64,000 nt of DNA, from positions 23,999 through 87,998 of IMG/VR virus record IMGVR_UViG_3300036781_000236; one strand, given 5' to 3'. This document shows positions 1-21,271 of this stretch, one piece after another; position 1 is the first letter of the stretch, and each line of letters begins with the position of its first letter. The notes beneath the pieces are model-generated. The model was not told the origin of the DNA and did no database searches. It saw only the letters and a program-made list of their open reading frames with translations. This DNA comes from a virus. Made by a program: the position numbers and the translations under genes.

Positions 1-32
1 TCACGCCCGCGTGAGAGGCCAGCTATACGAAG

Positions 33-119
33 CGGAGGAAGTCGGGATCGAACCGACACAGCCCTTACAGGCCATCGCCCTTTTCGAGAGGGGTAAGCAC
101 GCCAGCCTTGCGTTCCTCC
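33..119 (-). tRNA. tRNA-Ser (CGA)
   Basis: Acceptor GGAGGAA/TTCCTCC, discriminator G, anticodon loop CT-CGA-AA, long variable arm, T-arm GTCGG-TTCGATC-CCGAC. Confidence 0.85.
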
Positions 120-123
120 AAGG

Positions 124-735
124 CGGCGGGAGTGGGATTCGAACCCACGCACCCCGAAGGGCCTAGCGCGCTAGCAACAGAAGTCTCTCTAAGAGACACA
201 CTCAAGCGTGTAATCATTGATCTTACGAACTACCAGAAGATTTCGTGTAATCTCAGCGTGGTGATTCGGACAAATAGCAAACATGTTACCTACCTCGTAT
301 TTACCGCCGTCTTTACCAGGAACAAGCCTATGGATATCAAAGGTTTTAGAATACTCGCACCCTTCAATCATGCAATATGTGAAGAGAAACCTTTCTGACA
401 AAAAATCTAAACGGCGTGTTGAATCATTTCTTGCTGGACGTTCTCTACCTCTTGTTGGTCTTTGTCGCTTAGCGACACAACTCTTACTACAAAACCGTGA
501 CTTTTTTGAAAAGGGCGAAAACTCCTTATCGCAATTCTCACATCTCTTCGTTGGGAGACGGCGTCGCAACCCATCGCATGCCTTTGAGCAATAGACATTT
601 CGGCTAATGACTAACTGACTAGGACGCCTATAAATAGGCGTACTACATACCGAGCACACAGTATTGGGTGTTCTCATCGTCTGCTGTGCCATAGTGTTTC
701 AGCCGTGCCCTCTTGAACCACTTGAGTACCCCGCC
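124..735 (-). tRNA. Split tRNA-Ser (probably GCT): 5' half about 704-735, 3' half about 124-177, interrupted by an HNH ORF
   Basis: 5' half GGCGGGG-TA-CTC-AAGTGGTTCAA-GAG-G-GCACG; 3' half TTGCTAG-CGCGC-variable arm-GTGGG-TTCGAAT-CCCAC-TCCCGCC-G; the two acceptor strands pair. Confidence 0.7.
189..692 (-). CDS. HNH endonuclease with Cys-rich zinc modules, inserted in a tRNA
   Basis: CSVC..YCSKAC and CENC..FCSKSC modules; DIHRLVP-GKDGG-Y..GN...ICPNHH HNH core; AT-richer than flanks. Confidence 0.8.
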   Translation of the reverse strand: MAQQTMRTPNTVCSVCSTPIYRRPSQLVISRNVYCSKACDGLRRRLPTKRCENCDKEFSPFSKKSRFCSKSCVAKRQRPTRGRERPARNDSTRRLDFLSERFLFTYCMIEGCEYSKTFDIHRLVPGKDGGKYEVGNMFAICPNHHAEITRNLLVVRKINDYTLECVS

Positions 736-830
736 GAGAACGGCTATGTGGTGCGGGTACTCATGAGCGGCACATAGTCGGGATGGTACCACGCTTGCGG
801 TGCCCCACCCCTATGTGTAGGGTAGCAACC

Positions 831-1682
831 ATGACACGAAAAACAGTCAACCGCGATAAGCTGGAGGCATGGCTTGACGAGCAAGGTATCGTCGCTGACG
901 TTACGTTGCTGTTCGAGAAGCCACCGAAGGCACCACGCTACGCAGAACGGAACGCCGAAGCCGCACGTCTCTACACCGAAGAACGCCTGACGCTCCAGGA
1001 GATCGGTGACCGCTTCGGTGTCACCCGAGAATCCGTGCGGCTGTGGTTGAAAGCAGCGAACGTACCGAAGGTTGCGGTGCGGTCCCGGACCACGGAGCGC
1101 CGTAACCTGCGGATCGCCGCGCTGGTGGAACGCCGCGACGAGATGCGCGCGATGTACTTCGAGTGCGGTAACACCCCAGCTTTCGCGAAGCGTCTCGGTG
1201 TCGGACCAGCTATCGCGAAAGGGGTGGTAGACGCGGTGATCGGACGGGATGAGTGGCGGTTAGCGAAAGTGTGCGGTGCTCATCGCGTCTCCGACGACCT
1301 CCTCAGTGGCTATCTCCGTGACGCGGCGGCGCAGGTAGGCCAGGATGTGCCTCTCACCTACAAGGCTTACGACGAGATCGCGGAAGCCCGTGGGTGGCCC
1401 ACACACCAGACGTTCGAGTTGAGGTGGGGAGGATGGCGCGACGCCTGTTCCGCGAACGGTGTGCGGTGCAACGACGTTCGACGTTCCTACACTCGTAAGT
1501 GGCCCGCGGAGAAGTGCTGGGAGTGCGTCCGCGGACTCGCCGTCGAAATCGGTCGTGTCCCCACAGTCACCGAGTACGAGCTGTGGAGCAAGGGACATCC
1601 AGACCGTGCGTCGGTTGCGATTGTGCGTCGCCGTATCGGAGGATGGAAGGACGTGATCCGTACCCTCAGCACCGAACTGTGA
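831..1682 (+). CDS. DNA-binding protein: sigma70-region-4-like HTH plus two homing-endonuclease-associated-repeat-like domains
   Basis: TLQEIGDRFGVTRESVRLW HTH; repeats PLTYKAYD...PTHQTFELRWGGW and PTVTEYE...ASVAIVRRRIGGW; leaderless promoter TTGCGG-17-TAGGGT before the ATG at 831. Confidence 0.7.
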   Translation: MTRKTVNRDKLEAWLDEQGIVADVTLLFEKPPKAPRYAERNAEAARLYTEERLTLQEIGDRFGVTRESVRLWLKAANVPKVAVRSRTTERRNLRIAALVERRDEMRAMYFECGNTPAFAKRLGVGPAIAKGVVDAVIGRDEWRLAKVCGAHRVSDDLLSGYLRDAAAQVGQDVPLTYKAYDEIAEARGWPTHQTFELRWGGWRDACSANGVRCNDVRRSYTRKWPAEKCWECVRGLAVEIGRVPTVTEYELWSKGHPDRASVAIVRRRIGGWKDVIRTLSTEL

Positions 1683-1724
1683 ACGTCACGCGGGCGTGAC
1701 AGTCCTGCTATACGATGCTGGTTC

Positions 1725-1807
1725 GCGCGAGTGGTGGAACGGCATACACGATGCGCTCAAAACGCATTGCCCTTCGGGGCTTGAGGGTTCGAATCCCTCC
1801 TCGCGCA
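1725..1807 (+). tRNA. tRNA-Leu (CAA)
   Basis: GCGCGAG/CTCGCGC acceptor, ATGCG-CTCAAAA-CGCAT anticodon arm, long variable arm, GAGGG-TTCGAAT-CCCTC. Confidence 0.92.
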
Positions 1808-1892
1808 CTTAGGTAGAATGGGGCCAGCGGGCGCGAACCCGCCGACCCCGATACGGGGCCACATCACAACCACGACGAAGGAGTAGCCCCGA

Positions 1893-2429
1893 ATGCAGAA
1901 CACTACCGGAGGACTCTGCGAGTGCGGGTGTGGACAGCCAGCTCCTCTTGCTAAGCGGACAGATAGGCGTCAGGGGACTGTCAAAGGAGAGCCACAACGC
2001 TACATACGTGGTCACAGTATGAAGTCTGGACCCGACGATGTACCTCGTGAGTGTGCTTGTGGGTGTGGAAAACTTACTACCCTGAGAAACGGTCATGCCA
2101 AGAAGTTCGTTCACGGGCATAACTCAGAAGTACGAAATATTACAGAGGCAGACTACACCGTAACCGAAACTGGATTCGGTACACCTTGTTGGATTTGGAA
2201 TCGAACCACTAGCGAGGGGCGCGGTAAAGTACAGATTGACAAGAAGAAGACATACCCATATCGTGTCTTGTACACAATGCTAGTCGGAGAAATACCGCAA
2301 GGCTATGTGCTACATCATCTATGTGAGAACCCGCTATGTGTCAACCCCGAACATCTCCAACCAATGACTCAATCAAAACATATTAAACTACATCGAATAC
2401 CTGGGCATAACCGAAGATCAGATTCCTAA
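1893..2429 (+). CDS. HNH endonuclease with CxCGCG repeats
   Basis: CECGCG/CACGCG repeats, TPCWIW, LHHLCENPLCVNPEHL; RBS AAGGAG. Confidence 0.85.
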   Translation: MQNTTGGLCECGCGQPAPLAKRTDRRQGTVKGEPQRYIRGHSMKSGPDDVPRECACGCGKLTTLRNGHAKKFVHGHNSEVRNITEADYTVTETGFGTPCWIWNRTTSEGRGKVQIDKKKTYPYRVLYTMLVGEIPQGYVLHHLCENPLCVNPEHLQPMTQSKHIKLHRIPGHNRRSDS

Positions 2430-3683
2430 ATCGTTCATTCCTAATAGTGATGCGCAACTAGCATCGCCGCTAGTATTACCGATTGGGCGACTATAACCCT
2501 GTACGTCTGGACTCCAAACTGCGGCGCGCATCTTCGCGCGCGTTCGGTTGTACGCCGACAGGAACGCGTCAACTGCGACCAGACCAGTCCCAGTGTTGGA
2601 GAAGAAATCAGCGAGCAACTCTCTCTCCACCTCGATTCCTTGCCGGGTGACCTTGGTGACGCCAGCGGGGAGCACGCAGTCCTCACCGTCACCGCACGCG
2701 AGGTACAGCTGACACGCCATCTGCTTCGCGGCCTGCAACCCCAACGGTGGCGGCGGGACACCCCACAAGTAGTCCACCGAGAACGTGCCTGGCTGGTCAT
2801 CGTTCAGATCGAGCGCCTGGCATGACGGCCAGAATCCTTGGATGTACGTGGAGTCCGGTGTCGCTCCAGGGAGGCTCATGCGGGTCAGGTACCGCCACTC
2901 ATCGAGCCGGTAGCAGTCGGGGTCAAGCACCTCACCGTTGATCGTCACCTTCAAGATTTGCCGTACGGGGTAGCCGGACAAGCGCACACGGCTAAGTCCG
3001 TTGCAGCCCATCTGCTGACCGTTCTCGTTCCACCATCCCCACCCTGCCCCGTAGCCGCCGCCCCACGCGTACCCGCCCGCGTAACCACCGGGCAGCCACA
3101 GCCACGGCCCTAGCCCGGACGCCCACGAGCACCCGCACGCCTGGTTCATCGGCCGGACGTGAGCGTGAGTCAACCCTGGGAACTGACGACCGGACATTTG
3201 GTACAGCAGCATCCCCGCCTCCACGGCGACCATGTCCCACACCGCCGCGTTATCCGCGTACGTCGCGGAGCAGCACGCGGCTGCTTCCTGCCCCGTGATC
3301 CAGTTCACCGTTGGCCCCTCGACAGGCATCGGCGGAATGGTGCTGACGGGGCCATACGGGGTGTACACGTAGCCTTGCAACTGGAACTCGTACACCGTCA
3401 CACCGTTCACTTCGGTGACGTTCACGAACCCAGCGGACCCACCGAGATAGAGGGACGCCCAGTTCCCGTAGGCGGCGCTAACGGCCGTCTCGACCTGCGC
3501 CTGCGTAGATCCTTCCGCCAACAAACCCACCTTGTCGGTGCCCCACCCTGTCGTAGAACCACCCTCGAAGTACGCGCACACGATCCACCCGACGGTGCCC
3601 TCTGTCTGTTCGCTGAAATACTGCTCCCACGTCGGGGTGGCTAGACACGACTCGTACGGTGGGTAGGGAGGCAGGACGCTCAT
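2418..3683 (-). CDS. Head-to-tail adaptor with N-terminal extension
   Basis: LYQMSGRQF...VRP..C.C, LDPDCYRLD, WPSCQ, ACQLYLAC, LPAGVTKVTRQG pattern of actinophage adaptors; follows tail tube gene. Confidence 0.7.
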   Translation of the reverse strand: MSVLPPYPPYESCLATPTWEQYFSEQTEGTVGWIVCAYFEGGSTTGWGTDKVGLLAEGSTQAQVETAVSAAYGNWASLYLGGSAGFVNVTEVNGVTVYEFQLQGYVYTPYGPVSTIPPMPVEGPTVNWITGQEAAACCSATYADNAAVWDMVAVEAGMLLYQMSGRQFPGLTHAHVRPMNQACGCSWASGLGPWLWLPGGYAGGYAWGGGYGAGWGWWNENGQQMGCNGLSRVRLSGYPVRQILKVTINGEVLDPDCYRLDEWRYLTRMSLPGATPDSTYIQGFWPSCQALDLNDDQPGTFSVDYLWGVPPPPLGLQAAKQMACQLYLACGDGEDCVLPAGVTKVTRQGIEVERELLADFFSNTGTGLVAVDAFLSAYNRTRAKMRAAVWSPDVQGYSRPIGNTSGDASCASLLGMNDLGI

Positions 3684-19401: not shown

Positions 19402-21066
19402 CTACTCCGCTTCCGCGTCGTCCCCGCTCATATAACCAAGCGTGCAACGACAGTTGATCACCGATCCCGCCTCACCGGATGGGTCACCTGGGAACATGAG
19501 CGAGTCGCCGTCCACGTCGAAAGGAGCGTCGAGGGGCTGCGTTTGTCCGTCAAGCCCGTCCACAAGTTCATGGCGCGGGTAGATAGCTCCCTCGGCGGTC
19601 ATCCACACCTTGCTTAGCTTCGAGTTCCCGCCGGTCGCGGCGTCAATGGCTTGTGTCGCGGCGAGGCTCCCGCCCCCTGTGGCCCCGGCGAGGGTGGTGC
19701 GGGCGATAGTGACAGCGCGGGTGTAAGACTGCTCGTTCATCCCTACCTGGATCGCCCTAGCGGTGTCCGGGATCGACAAGCCCTGGTCGTAGGACGCCTG
19801 CACGATCTTCGTGACGTTGTCCAACGTCGTCTGCGCGATGTTAGGGATCTGGCTCGCGGTGTTCGCGATCTCCTTCGCGACATACGGGTTGCTCACATCG
19901 AAGCTGACCCCTGCGCTTTCCAAACTGGCTTGTGTGACCGAACGAACCATCGCCTGCCGGACAGGCTCCGTCTTCGTGCGTAGCGAGAAGATCAGCGCAT
20001 CCACGTCCAGCATTTCGGCAGGGGCCGGGGCGCTCCACACGGGGTTACCGGCGGACGCCGCGTACAGATCAGCTTGGGCGTCGCGGAGGTTCGCCTTCGC
20101 CGCCTCAACATGCTCGGGGCTGCTTCCGTCGGATAGGGCGGTGCGGAGTTCGCCCTTAGCTTCCTCGACGGCCTTGTGGCGTGCCGCCAACTGCTCCGGG
20201 GTGAGCGTGGCGGGAGGCTGCTTCTTCGCGGCTGCGGCCGTCAACGGCAATCCCCCGGTGAGCGGCAGCGTGATCTCGACCTGGTCGCCCCGGACTACGT
20301 AGAGCGCATCGAACGTCAATGGAAGCCCGAACACCGTTGCGGTGTCGGGCGCGTCGGGTGTGCCAGTGGATGCGTGCGCTTCGAAGCCGTGGTCGCGGGC
20401 GTACTCGACCCCGTACTTCACCAGTGCCTGCGTCACCGCTACCCGCAGTTCGACCAGACCTGGTACGTCGGGAAGGAGGATGCCGATGGTGTCGCCGTCT
20501 GGTTTCCCGAACTCGCCGCTACCTGCCACCACACCCGTCAGGGGACCGCAGTTCGCAGCGACCAACCGCAATGCGTCACCAAGCATGTCGAGTGGCCCAT
20601 CGATCTCCCCGAGCGACGCCAATGTGACGTGCAGCATCCCCGCTGGGTCACCGCCAGGGACAGTGAGCGCAGCGGATTGCTCCGCAGTAGGTTTCAGACA
20701 AACCATCGTGCTCAACGGTGTCGGAGCCGCCGCCGTCAACGCCAATGACGCAACGAGCGACCGGACATCAGCGGGCGCGAGTCCTACGAGCGCCGCCATG
20801 TCCGCGTCCCGACGTGCCGAAGCGGTGAGGTGGTTCGTCACTGTCGCCGTGAAGTTCGCGGCTGCGTCACGGCCTGCTTTCCGCAGGATCGGTTCGAGCA
20901 CCTTCACCATCCGCGGCACCAGATCGTCGGCGCGCTTATACCCAGCCTGGATGACACGGTTGTGGTGCGCCGCCGATGGTGCGACAGGGACAGCCTTCTC
21001 TGGCTTCGGCTGCGTCGCTTCCACCGCTTCCGCGGTGGTCTCCTTGACGGAGCGGTACTCGGGCAT
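19402..21066 (-). CDS. MuF-like minor head protein with internal 2H-phosphoesterase domain
   Basis: C-terminal RAVTIARTT, KVW...RH..DGQ..PLDAPF...FPGDP..INCRC (MuF); internal HVTL and HAST 2H motifs. Confidence 0.85.
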   Translation of the reverse strand: MPEYRSVKETTAEAVEATQPKPEKAVPVAPSAAHHNRVIQAGYKRADDLVPRMVKVLEPILRKAGRDAAANFTATVTNHLTASARRDADMAALVGLAPADVRSLVASLALTAAAPTPLSTMVCLKPTAEQSAALTVPGGDPAGMLHVTLASLGEIDGPLDMLGDALRLVAANCGPLTGVVAGSGEFGKPDGDTIGILLPDVPGLVELRVAVTQALVKYGVEYARDHGFEAHASTGTPDAPDTATVFGLPLTFDALYVVRGDQVEITLPLTGGLPLTAAAAKKQPPATLTPEQLAARHKAVEEAKGELRTALSDGSSPEHVEAAKANLRDAQADLYAASAGNPVWSAPAPAEMLDVDALIFSLRTKTEPVRQAMVRSVTQASLESAGVSFDVSNPYVAKEIANTASQIPNIAQTTLDNVTKIVQASYDQGLSIPDTARAIQVGMNEQSYTRAVTIARTTLAGATGGGSLAATQAIDAATGGNSKLSKVWMTAEGAIYPRHELVDGLDGQTQPLDAPFDVDGDSLMFPGDPSGEAGSVINCRCTLGYMSGDDAEAE

Positions 21067-21271
21067 CTGGACGCCCAACCCTAAACCTCTACTTGACCCT
21101 CATCACGCGGGCGTGATTCGCCCATCACCGCAGCCTGCAACCGGCGAAGCTCGGATGCCTTCACCACTTCCTCGCCACCAGACTCGTCCCACGCCAATGC
21201 GCCGCCATGACCGCGCTGCTCTTTGACGACAGCCTCGGCGTTCGCGCAACGCGTCTCACGTGTCATGTCCA

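What the first reader, a model, noticed from the sequence alone, without database searches (positions are those of the whole stretch)
178..703. tRNA-Ser split in the anticodon arm by a bare HNH ORF
Seen: the 5' half (704-735) and 3' half (124-177) have complementary acceptor strands. The ~525-nt insert between them is almost entirely an AT-rich HNH ORF, with only ~11 nt on each side. That leaves no room for a group I/II ribozyme core outside the ORF. The insert ends can pair imperfectly (GAAACACT with AGTGTGTC; GGCTGAA with TTCTGTT), and a hairpin GTCTCT-TAG-AGAGAC covers the stop codon. The rejoined anticodon stem has one A-C mismatch. Inference: either a protein-spliced (cut and ligate) intron, a two-piece tRNA, or a tRNA killed by homing.
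Basis: partly seen in the sequence, partly recalled or inferred. Interest (0 to 1): 0.75.

Follow-up and report, generated by a model that had tools for sequence, protein, structure and literature searches.

The report
Nuclease gene splitting phage serine tRNA
A selfish DNA-cutting-enzyme gene of a family that normally sits right beside serine tRNA genes has landed cleanly inside one such gene of a soil phage, most likely killing that tRNA rather than forming a new kind of intron.

Summary
On the minus strand, window 704-735 and 124-177 are the two halves of one tRNA-Ser(GCU). A 526-nt insert (178-703) separates them between tRNA positions 31 and 32. It holds a 167-aa HNH ORF with 11 nt on each side and has 43.5% GC against 62.6% for the genome.

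I found no group I core, tRNA-like shell or bulge-helix-bulge motif. The end pairing is no better than chance. The phage encodes no RtcB, RNA ligase or tRNA-splicing endonuclease.

The ORF belongs to a zinc-ribbon HNH family with 118 homologues. Of 58 unique related loci, 41 lie directly beside a tRNA-Ser gene in phage tRNA arrays. Several of these loci keep orphan tRNA-Ser pieces, and the pieces break in the D-to-anticodon region. In two of them the nuclease brought a replacement tRNA-Ser.

The window is the only case of a bare nuclease gene in a clean split. My best reading (0.6) is a recent homing accident that left a dead tRNA and protects the site from further cutting. RNA-level rescue is not excluded (about 0.17), and no RNA data exist.

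This scan has already reported related designs on other DNA, namely tRNA-shaped HNH introns and HNH-plus-replacement-tRNA cassettes. This case matches neither design.

The parts
704..735 (-). 5' half of tRNA-Ser(GCU): acceptor 5' strand, D arm, position 26 and the 5' strand of the anticodon stem (tRNA positions 1-31)
   Evidence: ARAGORN -i cloverleaf; sequence read
178..703 (-). 526-nt AT-rich insert (43.5% GC), same orientation as the tRNA
189..692 (-). 167-aa zinc-ribbon + HNH endonuclease ORF. It keeps all 20 invariant family residues, including the C/H positions and the CPNHHAE motif
   Evidence: Pfam HNH 14.3 bits, below cut-off; phrog_1271 E 3.8e-14
183..197 (-). 6-bp hairpin with a 3-nt loop over the TAG stop, followed by a T-rich run (weak terminator-like site)
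   Evidence: not more frequent than in shuffles
122..177 (-). 3' half of tRNA-Ser(GCU). It comprises the anticodon loop (UUGCUAG), the 3' strand of the anticodon stem, the long variable arm, the T arm, the acceptor 3' strand, discriminator G and two further bases (CC, 123-122). The finding's own 3' half is 124-177.
32..119 (-). intact tRNA-Ser(CGA), 2 nt downstream of the split tRNA. It continues the minus-strand tRNA array (Arg, Asp, Glu, Gln, Pro lie upstream of the window start)
831..1682 (+). divergent ORF with an HTH domain and a 'homing endonuclease associated repeat'. Native GC (62%)
1725..1808 (+). tRNA-Leu(CAA)
1893..2429 (+). second AT-rich HNH endonuclease gene (HNH_3 family, 48% GC) just after tRNA-Leu

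Best explanation
A free-standing HNH homing-endonuclease gene was recently copied into the phage's own tRNA-Ser(GCU) gene, at or next to the place where the enzyme cuts such genes (the 5' side of the anticodon loop).

Shown: the gene belongs to a family that lives beside tRNA-Ser genes in phage tRNA arrays. The insert is foreign in composition, intact and full length. It carries no ribozyme, no tRNA-like shell and no replacement tRNA.

Inferred: the enzyme recognises tRNA-Ser gene DNA and breaks it in the D-to-anticodon region. Repair of such a break in this GC-rich phage captured only the nuclease gene. The tRNA-Ser(GCU) gene is therefore a pseudogene in two pieces. The phage tolerates this because phage tRNAs are dispensable. 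The split target can no longer be cut, so the element is safe there. The nuclease is transcribed with the tRNA array, in which it is the first gene.
For: 1. Family context. There are 118 homologues, none above 57% identity. Of 58 unique loci, 29 have a tRNA-Ser gene starting -4 to +41 nt after the HNH homology. Another 12 have a tRNA-Ser ending within 86 nt upstream. All 41 are on the same strand as the HNH. In many loci the ORF's stop codon lies inside the first 24 nt of the tRNA.

2. Signs of insertion into tRNA-Ser genes elsewhere.
- L038 and L046 each have a 5' orphan, then the HNH, then a full tRNA-Ser, then a 3' orphan, and the orphans' acceptor strands match each other.
- L026, L191 and L007 have partial 5' copies of 24, 18 and about 20 nt before the HNH.
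- L052 and L047 have a 3' orphan starting at about position 32/33 directly after the HNH stop.
- The 5' orphans end at positions 17-26 and the 3' orphans begin at 28-33. These limits bracket the window's 31/32 junction.

3. Foreign and recent. GC is 43.5% and GC3 is 39%, against 70% GC3 for native genes. All 20 invariant family residues are kept.

4. No splicing apparatus.
- No group I or II match and no tRNA match inside the insert at E<=10.
- Fold z-score is -1.12.
- End pairing is at chance level.
- A bulge-helix-bulge motif is at chance level.
- The 88-kb record has no RtcB, RNA ligase or tRNA-splicing endonuclease.

5. The same array holds a second, different HNH gene preceded by a good tRNA 5' half. 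I can find no T arm for it, which fits an older case that has decayed.

6. Precedent. T4 SegB is a free-standing endonuclease in a tRNA cluster and recognises a tRNA-gene motif (abstract of PMC2330249).
Against: - The insertion is exact to the nucleotide, with nothing lost or duplicated. That is what an intron looks like, and it is not the usual outcome of illegitimate break repair. The orphan-bearing relatives all lost or duplicated bases.
- Both halves are still perfect apart from one A/C mismatch. Recent arrival explains this equally well.
- In the rest of the family a working tRNA-Ser nearly always stays next to the nuclease. That suggests loss of the tRNA is selected against, so this copy is 1 of about 59.
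- No insert-free allele of this phage was found, so the ancestral state is inferred.
- The cleavage site is inferred from orphan boundaries and was not measured.
- No RNA data exist.
Confidence: 0.6

Rival explanations
1. The interruption is repaired at the RNA level without a ribozyme. Either host nucleases remove the ORF segment and a host ligase such as RtcB rejoins the halves, or the two halves stay paired and work as a two-piece tRNA. SerRS does not read the anticodon (recalled, from no call).
For: The insertion is exact, so rejoining gives a normal 5-bp stem and 7-nt loop. In the minimum-energy fold of the 614-nt precursor the acceptor stem and T arm still form. RtcB is present in 10 of the 14 control genomes, including Corynebacterium. 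Published 'enigmatic' introns in Lak phage tRNAs show that phage tRNAs can carry non-ribozyme inserts (passages of PMC6784885).
Against: No structure marks the two junctions. The bulge-helix-bulge score is 7/10, and 65% of random site pairs reach it. End pairing is at chance level. There is no tRNA-like shell. The phage has no ligase or splicing endonuclease. A terminator-like hairpin lies between the ORF and the 3' half. None of the 61 related loci scanned shows the same design.
Confidence: 0.17
2. A self-splicing intron (group I, group II or an unknown ribozyme) whose catalytic core overlaps the coding sequence.
For: The last base of the insert is G, as in group I introns. A relative of the nuclease (L191) sits next to a tRNA-Ser(UGA) that carries a likely group I intron of about 230 nt.
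Against: No RF00028 match, and no match to any other intron family, at E<=10 on 701 nt or on 3000 nt. The same model finds the L191 intron at E 1e-6. Only 22 nt are non-coding. The ORF is collinear with free-standing relatives of 160-180 aa, so it holds no extra RNA domain. The 5' exon ends in G or C, not U. The fold is no more stable than shuffles.
Confidence: 0.03
3. The halves come from two different tRNA genes fused by rearrangement, or the join is an assembly chimera.
For: The GC content changes abruptly at both junctions. The record is a metagenome assembly.
Against: The acceptor strands pair 7 of 7 and the anticodon stem 4 of 5. The joined halves align end to end with tRNA-Ser. A second assembly of the source run is identical over 3 kb and runs on both sides in an 87,878-nt contig at even depth.
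Confidence: 0.04

Closest known systems
T4 SegB and other free-standing homing endonucleases in phage tRNA clusters (intronless homing).
   Same: A selfish nuclease gene sits in a phage tRNA array on the same strand as the tRNAs. The target lies in tRNA-gene DNA, and flanking tRNA genes are co-inherited (abstract of PMC2330249; passages of PMC3984707).
   Different: SegB is a GIY-YIG enzyme and lies between genes. Here an HNH gene of a tRNA-Ser-linked family lies inside the tRNA gene and splits it cleanly, with no tRNA carried along.
HNH-plus-replacement-tRNA cassettes inside older tRNA genes
   Same: This same HNH family shows that design in L038 and L046: orphan halves flank the nuclease and a full tRNA-Ser.
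   Different: The window's insert has no replacement tRNA, so nothing rescues the lost function.
Group I introns with homing endonuclease genes in bacterial tRNA anticodon loops (the tRNA-fMet intron endonuclease; reference title seen)
   Same: A homing endonuclease gene lies inside a tRNA anticodon arm, inserted exactly.
   Different: There is no ribozyme core. The position is 31/32 rather than inside the loop. The 5' exon does not end in U.
'Enigmatic' introns of Lak megaphage tRNAs and the tRNA-shaped HNH introns noted by this scan
   Same: A non-ribozyme insert in a phage tRNA.
   Different: Those inserts fold like a tRNA at their ends (passages of PMC6784885). This one has 11 nt on each side of the ORF and no tRNA-like match.
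[quoted passage not shown]
   Same: A free-standing endonuclease gene moved by illegitimate recombination into its own target site. [quoted passage not shown]
   Different: In those models the gene lands inside an existing intron. Here it landed in the bare gene.

Membership tests
Free-standing HNH homing endonuclease | Intact HNH (beta-beta-alpha-metal) nuclease motif | tested here: met
   All 20 invariant columns of a 41-sequence family alignment are kept. phrog_1271 'HNH endonuclease' matches at E 3.8e-14. A family profile hits the McrA and pyocin HNH domains at E 1.9e-4 and 4.8e-4. Pfam HNH scores only 14.3 bits, below its cut-off of 21.4.
Free-standing HNH homing endonuclease | Lies between genes, not in an intron or intein | tested here: not met
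   The family meets this in 58 of 58 unique related loci. The window copy lies inside a tRNA gene.
Free-standing HNH homing endonuclease | Sporadic, horizontally acquired | tested here: met
   GC 43.5% and GC3 39%, against genome GC 62.6% and native GC3 70%. Relatives occur in phages of 30-60% GC.
Free-standing HNH homing endonuclease | Cuts the allele that lacks it and is copied into the break | not testable with these tools
   Only indirect evidence: orphan tRNA-Ser fragments around family members.
Group I intron in a tRNA | Conserved catalytic core (P3-P9), detectable with RF00028 | tested here: not met
   No hit at E<=10. As a positive control, the L191 intron is found at 35 bits, E 1e-6.
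Group I intron in a tRNA | 5' exon ends in U (U-G pair in P1) and the intron ends in G | tested here: not met
   The exon ends in G, or in C with the 1-nt shift. The insert does end in G.
Archaeal-type protein-spliced (bulge-helix-bulge) intron | Two 3-nt bulges, 4 bp apart, holding the splice sites | tested here: not met
   The best arrangement gives 7 of 10 pairs, and 65% of 2000 random site pairs score as high.
Archaeal-type protein-spliced (bulge-helix-bulge) intron | Splicing endonuclease and ligase available | tested here: inconclusive
   The phage has neither. The host is unknown. The terminase is closest to those of phages of bacteria.
tRNA-shaped HNH intron (Lak-type, and earlier notes of this scan) | Insert ends fold into a tRNA-like acceptor and T-arm shell | tested here: not met
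   No tRNA-clan match inside 178-703 at E<=10. Only 11 nt flank the ORF on each side.
HNH + replacement tRNA cassette | A complete tRNA of the same identity travels with the nuclease between the orphan halves | tested here: not met
   There is no tRNA between 178 and 703. Relatives L038 and L046 do meet this.

The most novel reading that the evidence does not exclude
This is a ribozyme-free, ORF-only intervening sequence in a bacterial-virus tRNA that is dealt with at the RNA level. Host enzymes would cut out the nuclease mRNA. The exons would then either be resealed (for example by RtcB) or serve as a two-piece tRNA-Ser. The exact insertion would then be an adaptation and not an accident.
Probability: 0.12. 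Interest if true: 0.85.

Novelty: new variant of a known kind. Interest (0 to 1): 0.45.

Why it matters
Free-standing homing endonucleases are thought to become mobile introns by falling into their own target sites. This locus shows that step without any intron: a nuclease gene sitting bare in its likely target. That is possible only because a phage tRNA is expendable.

The wider result may matter more. A large zinc-ribbon HNH family is tied to tRNA-Ser genes, and I found it described in none of the papers searched. Its members often overlap the tRNA's first bases, sometimes carry a spare tRNA-Ser, and in one case sit beside a group I intron in tRNA-Ser. Together these loci offer a natural series for studying how such elements erode and rebuild phage tRNA arrays.

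If the tRNA turned out to be functional, it would point to a new way of splicing in bacteria.

Tried and rejected
Group I or II intron: no Rfam match.

tRNA-shaped shell: none found.

Bulge-helix-bulge motif: at chance level.

Unusual stability of the precursor: z-score -1.12, and 4 of 20 shuffles fold as well.

Phage-encoded RtcB, RNA ligase or tRNA-splicing endonuclease: none found. There is one weak 2H-phosphoesterase match, below cut-off, inside a 558-aa head protein.

Insert-free allele or close relatives of the phage:
- No match in the phage collection by megablast or blastn.
- No exact match to the 5' half in viral contigs.
- No relatives found through the neighbouring 421-aa protein.
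- The best terminase relatives are only 58-59% identical. Their records hold 4 tRNA matches scattered over three sites, or none, and no comparable array; I did not type those four, so I cannot say whether one is a tRNA-Ser.

RNA evidence: no RNA holder listed. Laying four DNA runs gave no joint. Only tiny pieces of the region were found outside the source run.

ARAGORN's intron call in L047 (tRNA-Gln with an 854-nt intron) is spurious. It borrows the 5' half of an intact upstream tRNA-Ser, and the acceptor stem mismatches. ARAGORN's two other intron calls in this genome were not followed up. These are tRNA-Asp with a 550-nt intron and tRNA-Arg with a 134-nt intron. The tRNA-Asp drawing shows acceptor mismatches.

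A search for more group I introns next to family members in 20 further loci found none.

Rows dropped. For the count I left out by hand the loci that repeat a contig or arrangement already counted: L009, L011, L015, L016, L019, L029, L032, L044, L058, L069, L072, L074, L077 and L081. I also left out L195, which is the same stretch as L065. Partial matches were left out too: L020-L025, L078, L080, L083, L085-L105, L196 and L197. One search scanned 61 loci, some duplicates included.

Papers. I read only the abstract and outline of PMC2330249. I read passages of PMC3984707, PMC6784885 and PMC7589089. For everything else I saw search listings only. I found no paper describing an HNH family tied to tRNA-Ser in searches, going by titles and abstract openings only. 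The following are recalled and come from no call: the T5 F-Tfl nucleases, the name I-Ssp6803I, SerRS not reading the anticodon, and RNase III removal of rRNA intervening sequences.

Full report
WHAT IS THERE

The window is bases 23999-87998 of an 87,998-bp virus record assembled from a soil metagenome, with 62.6% GC. Its large terminase is of the T4 type. It is closest, at under 60% identity, to terminases of phages of Actinobacteria and other bacteria. The host is therefore most likely a bacterium.

A tRNA array lies at the left end of the window and just before it. On the minus strand it runs Ser(GCU), Ser(CGA), Arg, Asp, Glu, Gln, Pro. A tRNA-Leu(CAA) lies on the plus strand.

ARAGORN with intron search reconstructs the first gene of this array as tRNA-Ser(gct) at window 122-735. 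It is interrupted after its 32nd base by 526 nt. In tRNA numbering the break is between positions 31 and 32, the junction of the anticodon stem's 5' strand and the loop. The junction is ambiguous by one G.

The cloverleaf is complete. It has a 7-bp acceptor stem, the 3-bp D stem of class II tRNAs, a long variable arm, a TTCGAAT T-loop and discriminator G. The anticodon stem has one A/C mismatch.

When a script joined the halves, they aligned with a tRNA-Ser HMM over positions 7-85 at 23.6 bits. The intact neighbour scores 25.5 bits. The 3' half alone scores 14.8 bits and the 5' half alone gives no hit.

The insert consists of a 167-aa ORF (189-692, minus strand) with 11 nt on each side. Its GC is 43.5% and its GC3 is 39%, against 70% GC3 for native genes. 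A second, independent assembly of the source run is identical over window 1-3000.

IS IT AN INTRON?

I tested each known way of removing an insert from a tRNA.

- Ribozyme. Rfam has no group I or group II match at E<=10, on 3000 nt or on 701 nt. The same library detects a group I intron in a related locus at E 1e-6. Only 22 nt are non-coding. The ORF is collinear with its free-standing relatives. The 5' exon ends in G or C, not U.
- tRNA-shaped shell. Published Lak-phage introns (passages of PMC6784885) and earlier notes of this scan describe inserts with tRNA-like ends. Nothing inside this insert matches a tRNA-like model.
- Bulge-helix-bulge. The best arrangement pairs 7 of 10 positions, and 65% of 2000 random site pairs do as well.
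- Pairing of the insert ends. The duplex is -19.2 kcal/mol against a shuffle mean of -20.7, and 65% of 500 shuffles are as good.
- Fold stability. The whole precursor is no more stable than shuffles, with z-score -1.12.
- Phage enzymes. The record has no RtcB, no RNA ligase and no tRNA-splicing endonuclease. It has one sub-threshold 2H-phosphoesterase match inside a head protein.
- Stop-codon hairpin. It is real and looks like a weak terminator. Such sites are no commoner here than in shuffles.

Nothing in the sequence marks the junctions for an RNA-processing machine.

WHAT THE ORF IS

The protein has N-terminal CxxC zinc-ribbon modules and a C-terminal HNH motif (CPNHHAE).

- Pfam sees the HNH motif only weakly, at 14.3 bits, below cut-off.
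- PHROGs calls it an HNH endonuclease at E 3.8e-14.
- A family profile reaches the HNH domains of McrA and pyocins.

It has 118 homologues in the large protein collection, none above 57% identical. The window copy keeps all 20 invariant residues.

WHERE THE FAMILY LIVES

I fetched the DNA around relatives from viral, metagenome and genome collections.

- In 61 loci with near-full-length matches, ARAGORN with intron search found no tRNA split by the HNH gene. The one exception was a spurious call in L047.
- Of 58 unique loci, 29 have a tRNA-Ser gene (anticodon gct, tga, cga or gga) starting -4 to +41 nt after the end of the HNH homology, on the same strand.
- Another 12 have a tRNA-Ser ending within 86 nt upstream.
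- Five have another tRNA directly downstream. Twelve have neither by ARAGORN's calls. In some of those, a class II tRNA or tRNA-Ser-like piece is nevertheless adjacent.
- tRNA-Ser makes up 31% of all tRNAs in these loci (88 of 280). That figure is itself inflated by the association.

In many loci the ORF runs into the tRNA, and its stop codon lies within the first 24 tRNA bases. The present survey shows that this is the rule.

TRACES OF INSERTION INTO tRNA-Ser GENES

Several loci keep orphan pieces.

- L038: a 5' piece, about 70 nt, the HNH gene, a complete tRNA-Ser(CGA), then a 3' piece that starts at about position 33. The acceptor strands of the two pieces pair 7 of 7.
- L046: the same design, with a 17-nt 5' piece and a 3' piece from about position 28. 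The acceptor strands again match.
- L026, L191 and L007: partial copies of the first 24, 18 and about 20 bases of the downstream tRNA-Ser, lying before the HNH gene.
- L052 and L047: a 3' piece starting at about position 32/33 directly after the HNH stop, with a complete tRNA-Ser upstream.

The 5' pieces end between positions 17 and 26. The 3' pieces begin between 28 and 33. The simplest reading is that the enzyme breaks tRNA-Ser genes in the D-to-anticodon region and that repair copies the nuclease gene in. Usually a whole or recombinant tRNA-Ser is copied with it. This is inference, since the cut site was not measured.

It fits two precedents. T4 SegB recognises a tRNA-gene motif and drives inheritance of the surrounding tRNA genes (abstract of PMC2330249). 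Earlier notes of this scan also describe 'nuclease plus replacement tRNA' cassettes.

L191 adds another variant. There the HNH gene sits beside a tRNA-Ser(UGA) whose anticodon loop holds a probable ORF-less group I intron of about 230 nt. RF00028 scores 35 bits at E 1e-6, below the gathering score of 50. This is the layout called collaborative homing in the review PMC3984707 (passages).

READING OF THE WINDOW

Among about 59 family loci, the window is the only one where the nuclease gene alone lies in a cleanly split tRNA-Ser. It has no replacement tRNA, and no bases were lost or duplicated.

I read it as a recent homing accident. The unameliorated composition shows recent arrival. The junction lies inside the range bracketed by the orphan pieces. 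The element gains immunity because its target is split. A phage tRNA is expendable.

In the same array, before the window start, a second and unrelated HNH gene (140 aa, phrog_4234) follows a well-formed tRNA 5' half. I can find only a doubtful acceptor remnant for it and no T arm. That looks like an older case that has decayed. It argues that such splits are not maintained.

WHAT SPEAKS AGAINST THIS READING

The exactness of the insertion is the strongest point for an intron-like design, because illegitimate repair usually leaves scars, as the relatives show. The family otherwise keeps a working tRNA-Ser at its side. No insert-free allele and no RNA data could be found.

I therefore put 0.6 on a dead, split gene. 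I put about 0.17 on RNA-level rescue, either cut and ligated by host enzymes or working as a two-piece tRNA. A hidden ribozyme gets 0.03, and an artefact or a fusion of two tRNA genes gets 0.04.

COMPARISON AND NOVELTY

Free-standing homing endonucleases in phage tRNA arrays are known. In the papers I could search (titles and abstract openings only), I did not find two things:

- a family tied to tRNA-Ser genes in this way;
- a nuclease gene lying bare in a tRNA gene.

The scan has met the two related designs before on other DNA, and this case matches neither. I class it as a new variant of a known kind, of moderate interest. It would be of high interest if RNA work showed that the tRNA is functional.

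Noticed in passing
genome 23280-23753, i.e. 245-720 nt before the window start (L001:605-1078): A second HNH gene of a different family (140 aa, phrog_4234) lies between tRNA-Glu and tRNA-Gln. A well-formed tRNA 5' half (acceptor strand, D arm, 5' strand of the anticodon stem) comes directly before it. The last 60 nt of the ORF are 70% GC and end in a near-complement of that acceptor strand, but I see no T arm. It is probably an older, decayed split tRNA.
   Followed up: partly
L191:261-1111 (contig of an Anaerolineae MAG): A family member sits just upstream of a tRNA-Ser(UGA) whose anticodon loop holds a probable ORF-less group I intron of about 230 nt (RF00028 35 bits, E 1e-6, below gathering). 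An 18-nt copy of the tRNA's 5' end lies before the HNH start. The layout resembles collaborative homing.
   Followed up: partly
L038:374-1113 and L046:1431-2128: These are cassettes of an HNH gene plus a complete tRNA-Ser inserted into a resident tRNA-Ser. The two orphan halves of the resident gene have matching acceptor strands.
   Followed up: yes
L014, L016, L017, L075, L076 (about 90 nt before the HNH start): A conserved tRNA-Ser(GCU)-like gene with an encoded CCA end lies directly upstream of the HNH gene. It has an aberrant T-loop and ARAGORN does not call it.
   Followed up: no
window 626-643 (minus strand, inside the ORF): A perfect 8-bp inverted repeat with a 2-nt spacer lies over the codons of the conserved TPIYRR motif. 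It is more than expected by chance for a 526-nt stretch by my rough estimate, and its meaning is unknown.
   Followed up: no
window 831-1682 (+) and 1893-2429 (+): Two further homing-endonuclease-type genes flank tRNA-Leu(CAA). One has native GC and carries an HTH domain and a homing-endonuclease repeat. The other is an AT-rich HNH_3 gene. The tRNA array thus holds four such genes within 3.3 kb.
   Followed up: partly
window 20353-20646 (minus strand, inside the 558-aa ORF 19402-21078): A weak 2H-phosphoesterase / 2'-5' RNA ligase-like match (17.6 bits, below cut-off) lies inside a head-region protein. An earlier first-reader note also pointed it out.
   Followed up: no
L017:422-804: A full tmRNA gene (125 bits) lies in the tRNA array of an AT-rich phage contig that carries a family member.
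   Followed up: no
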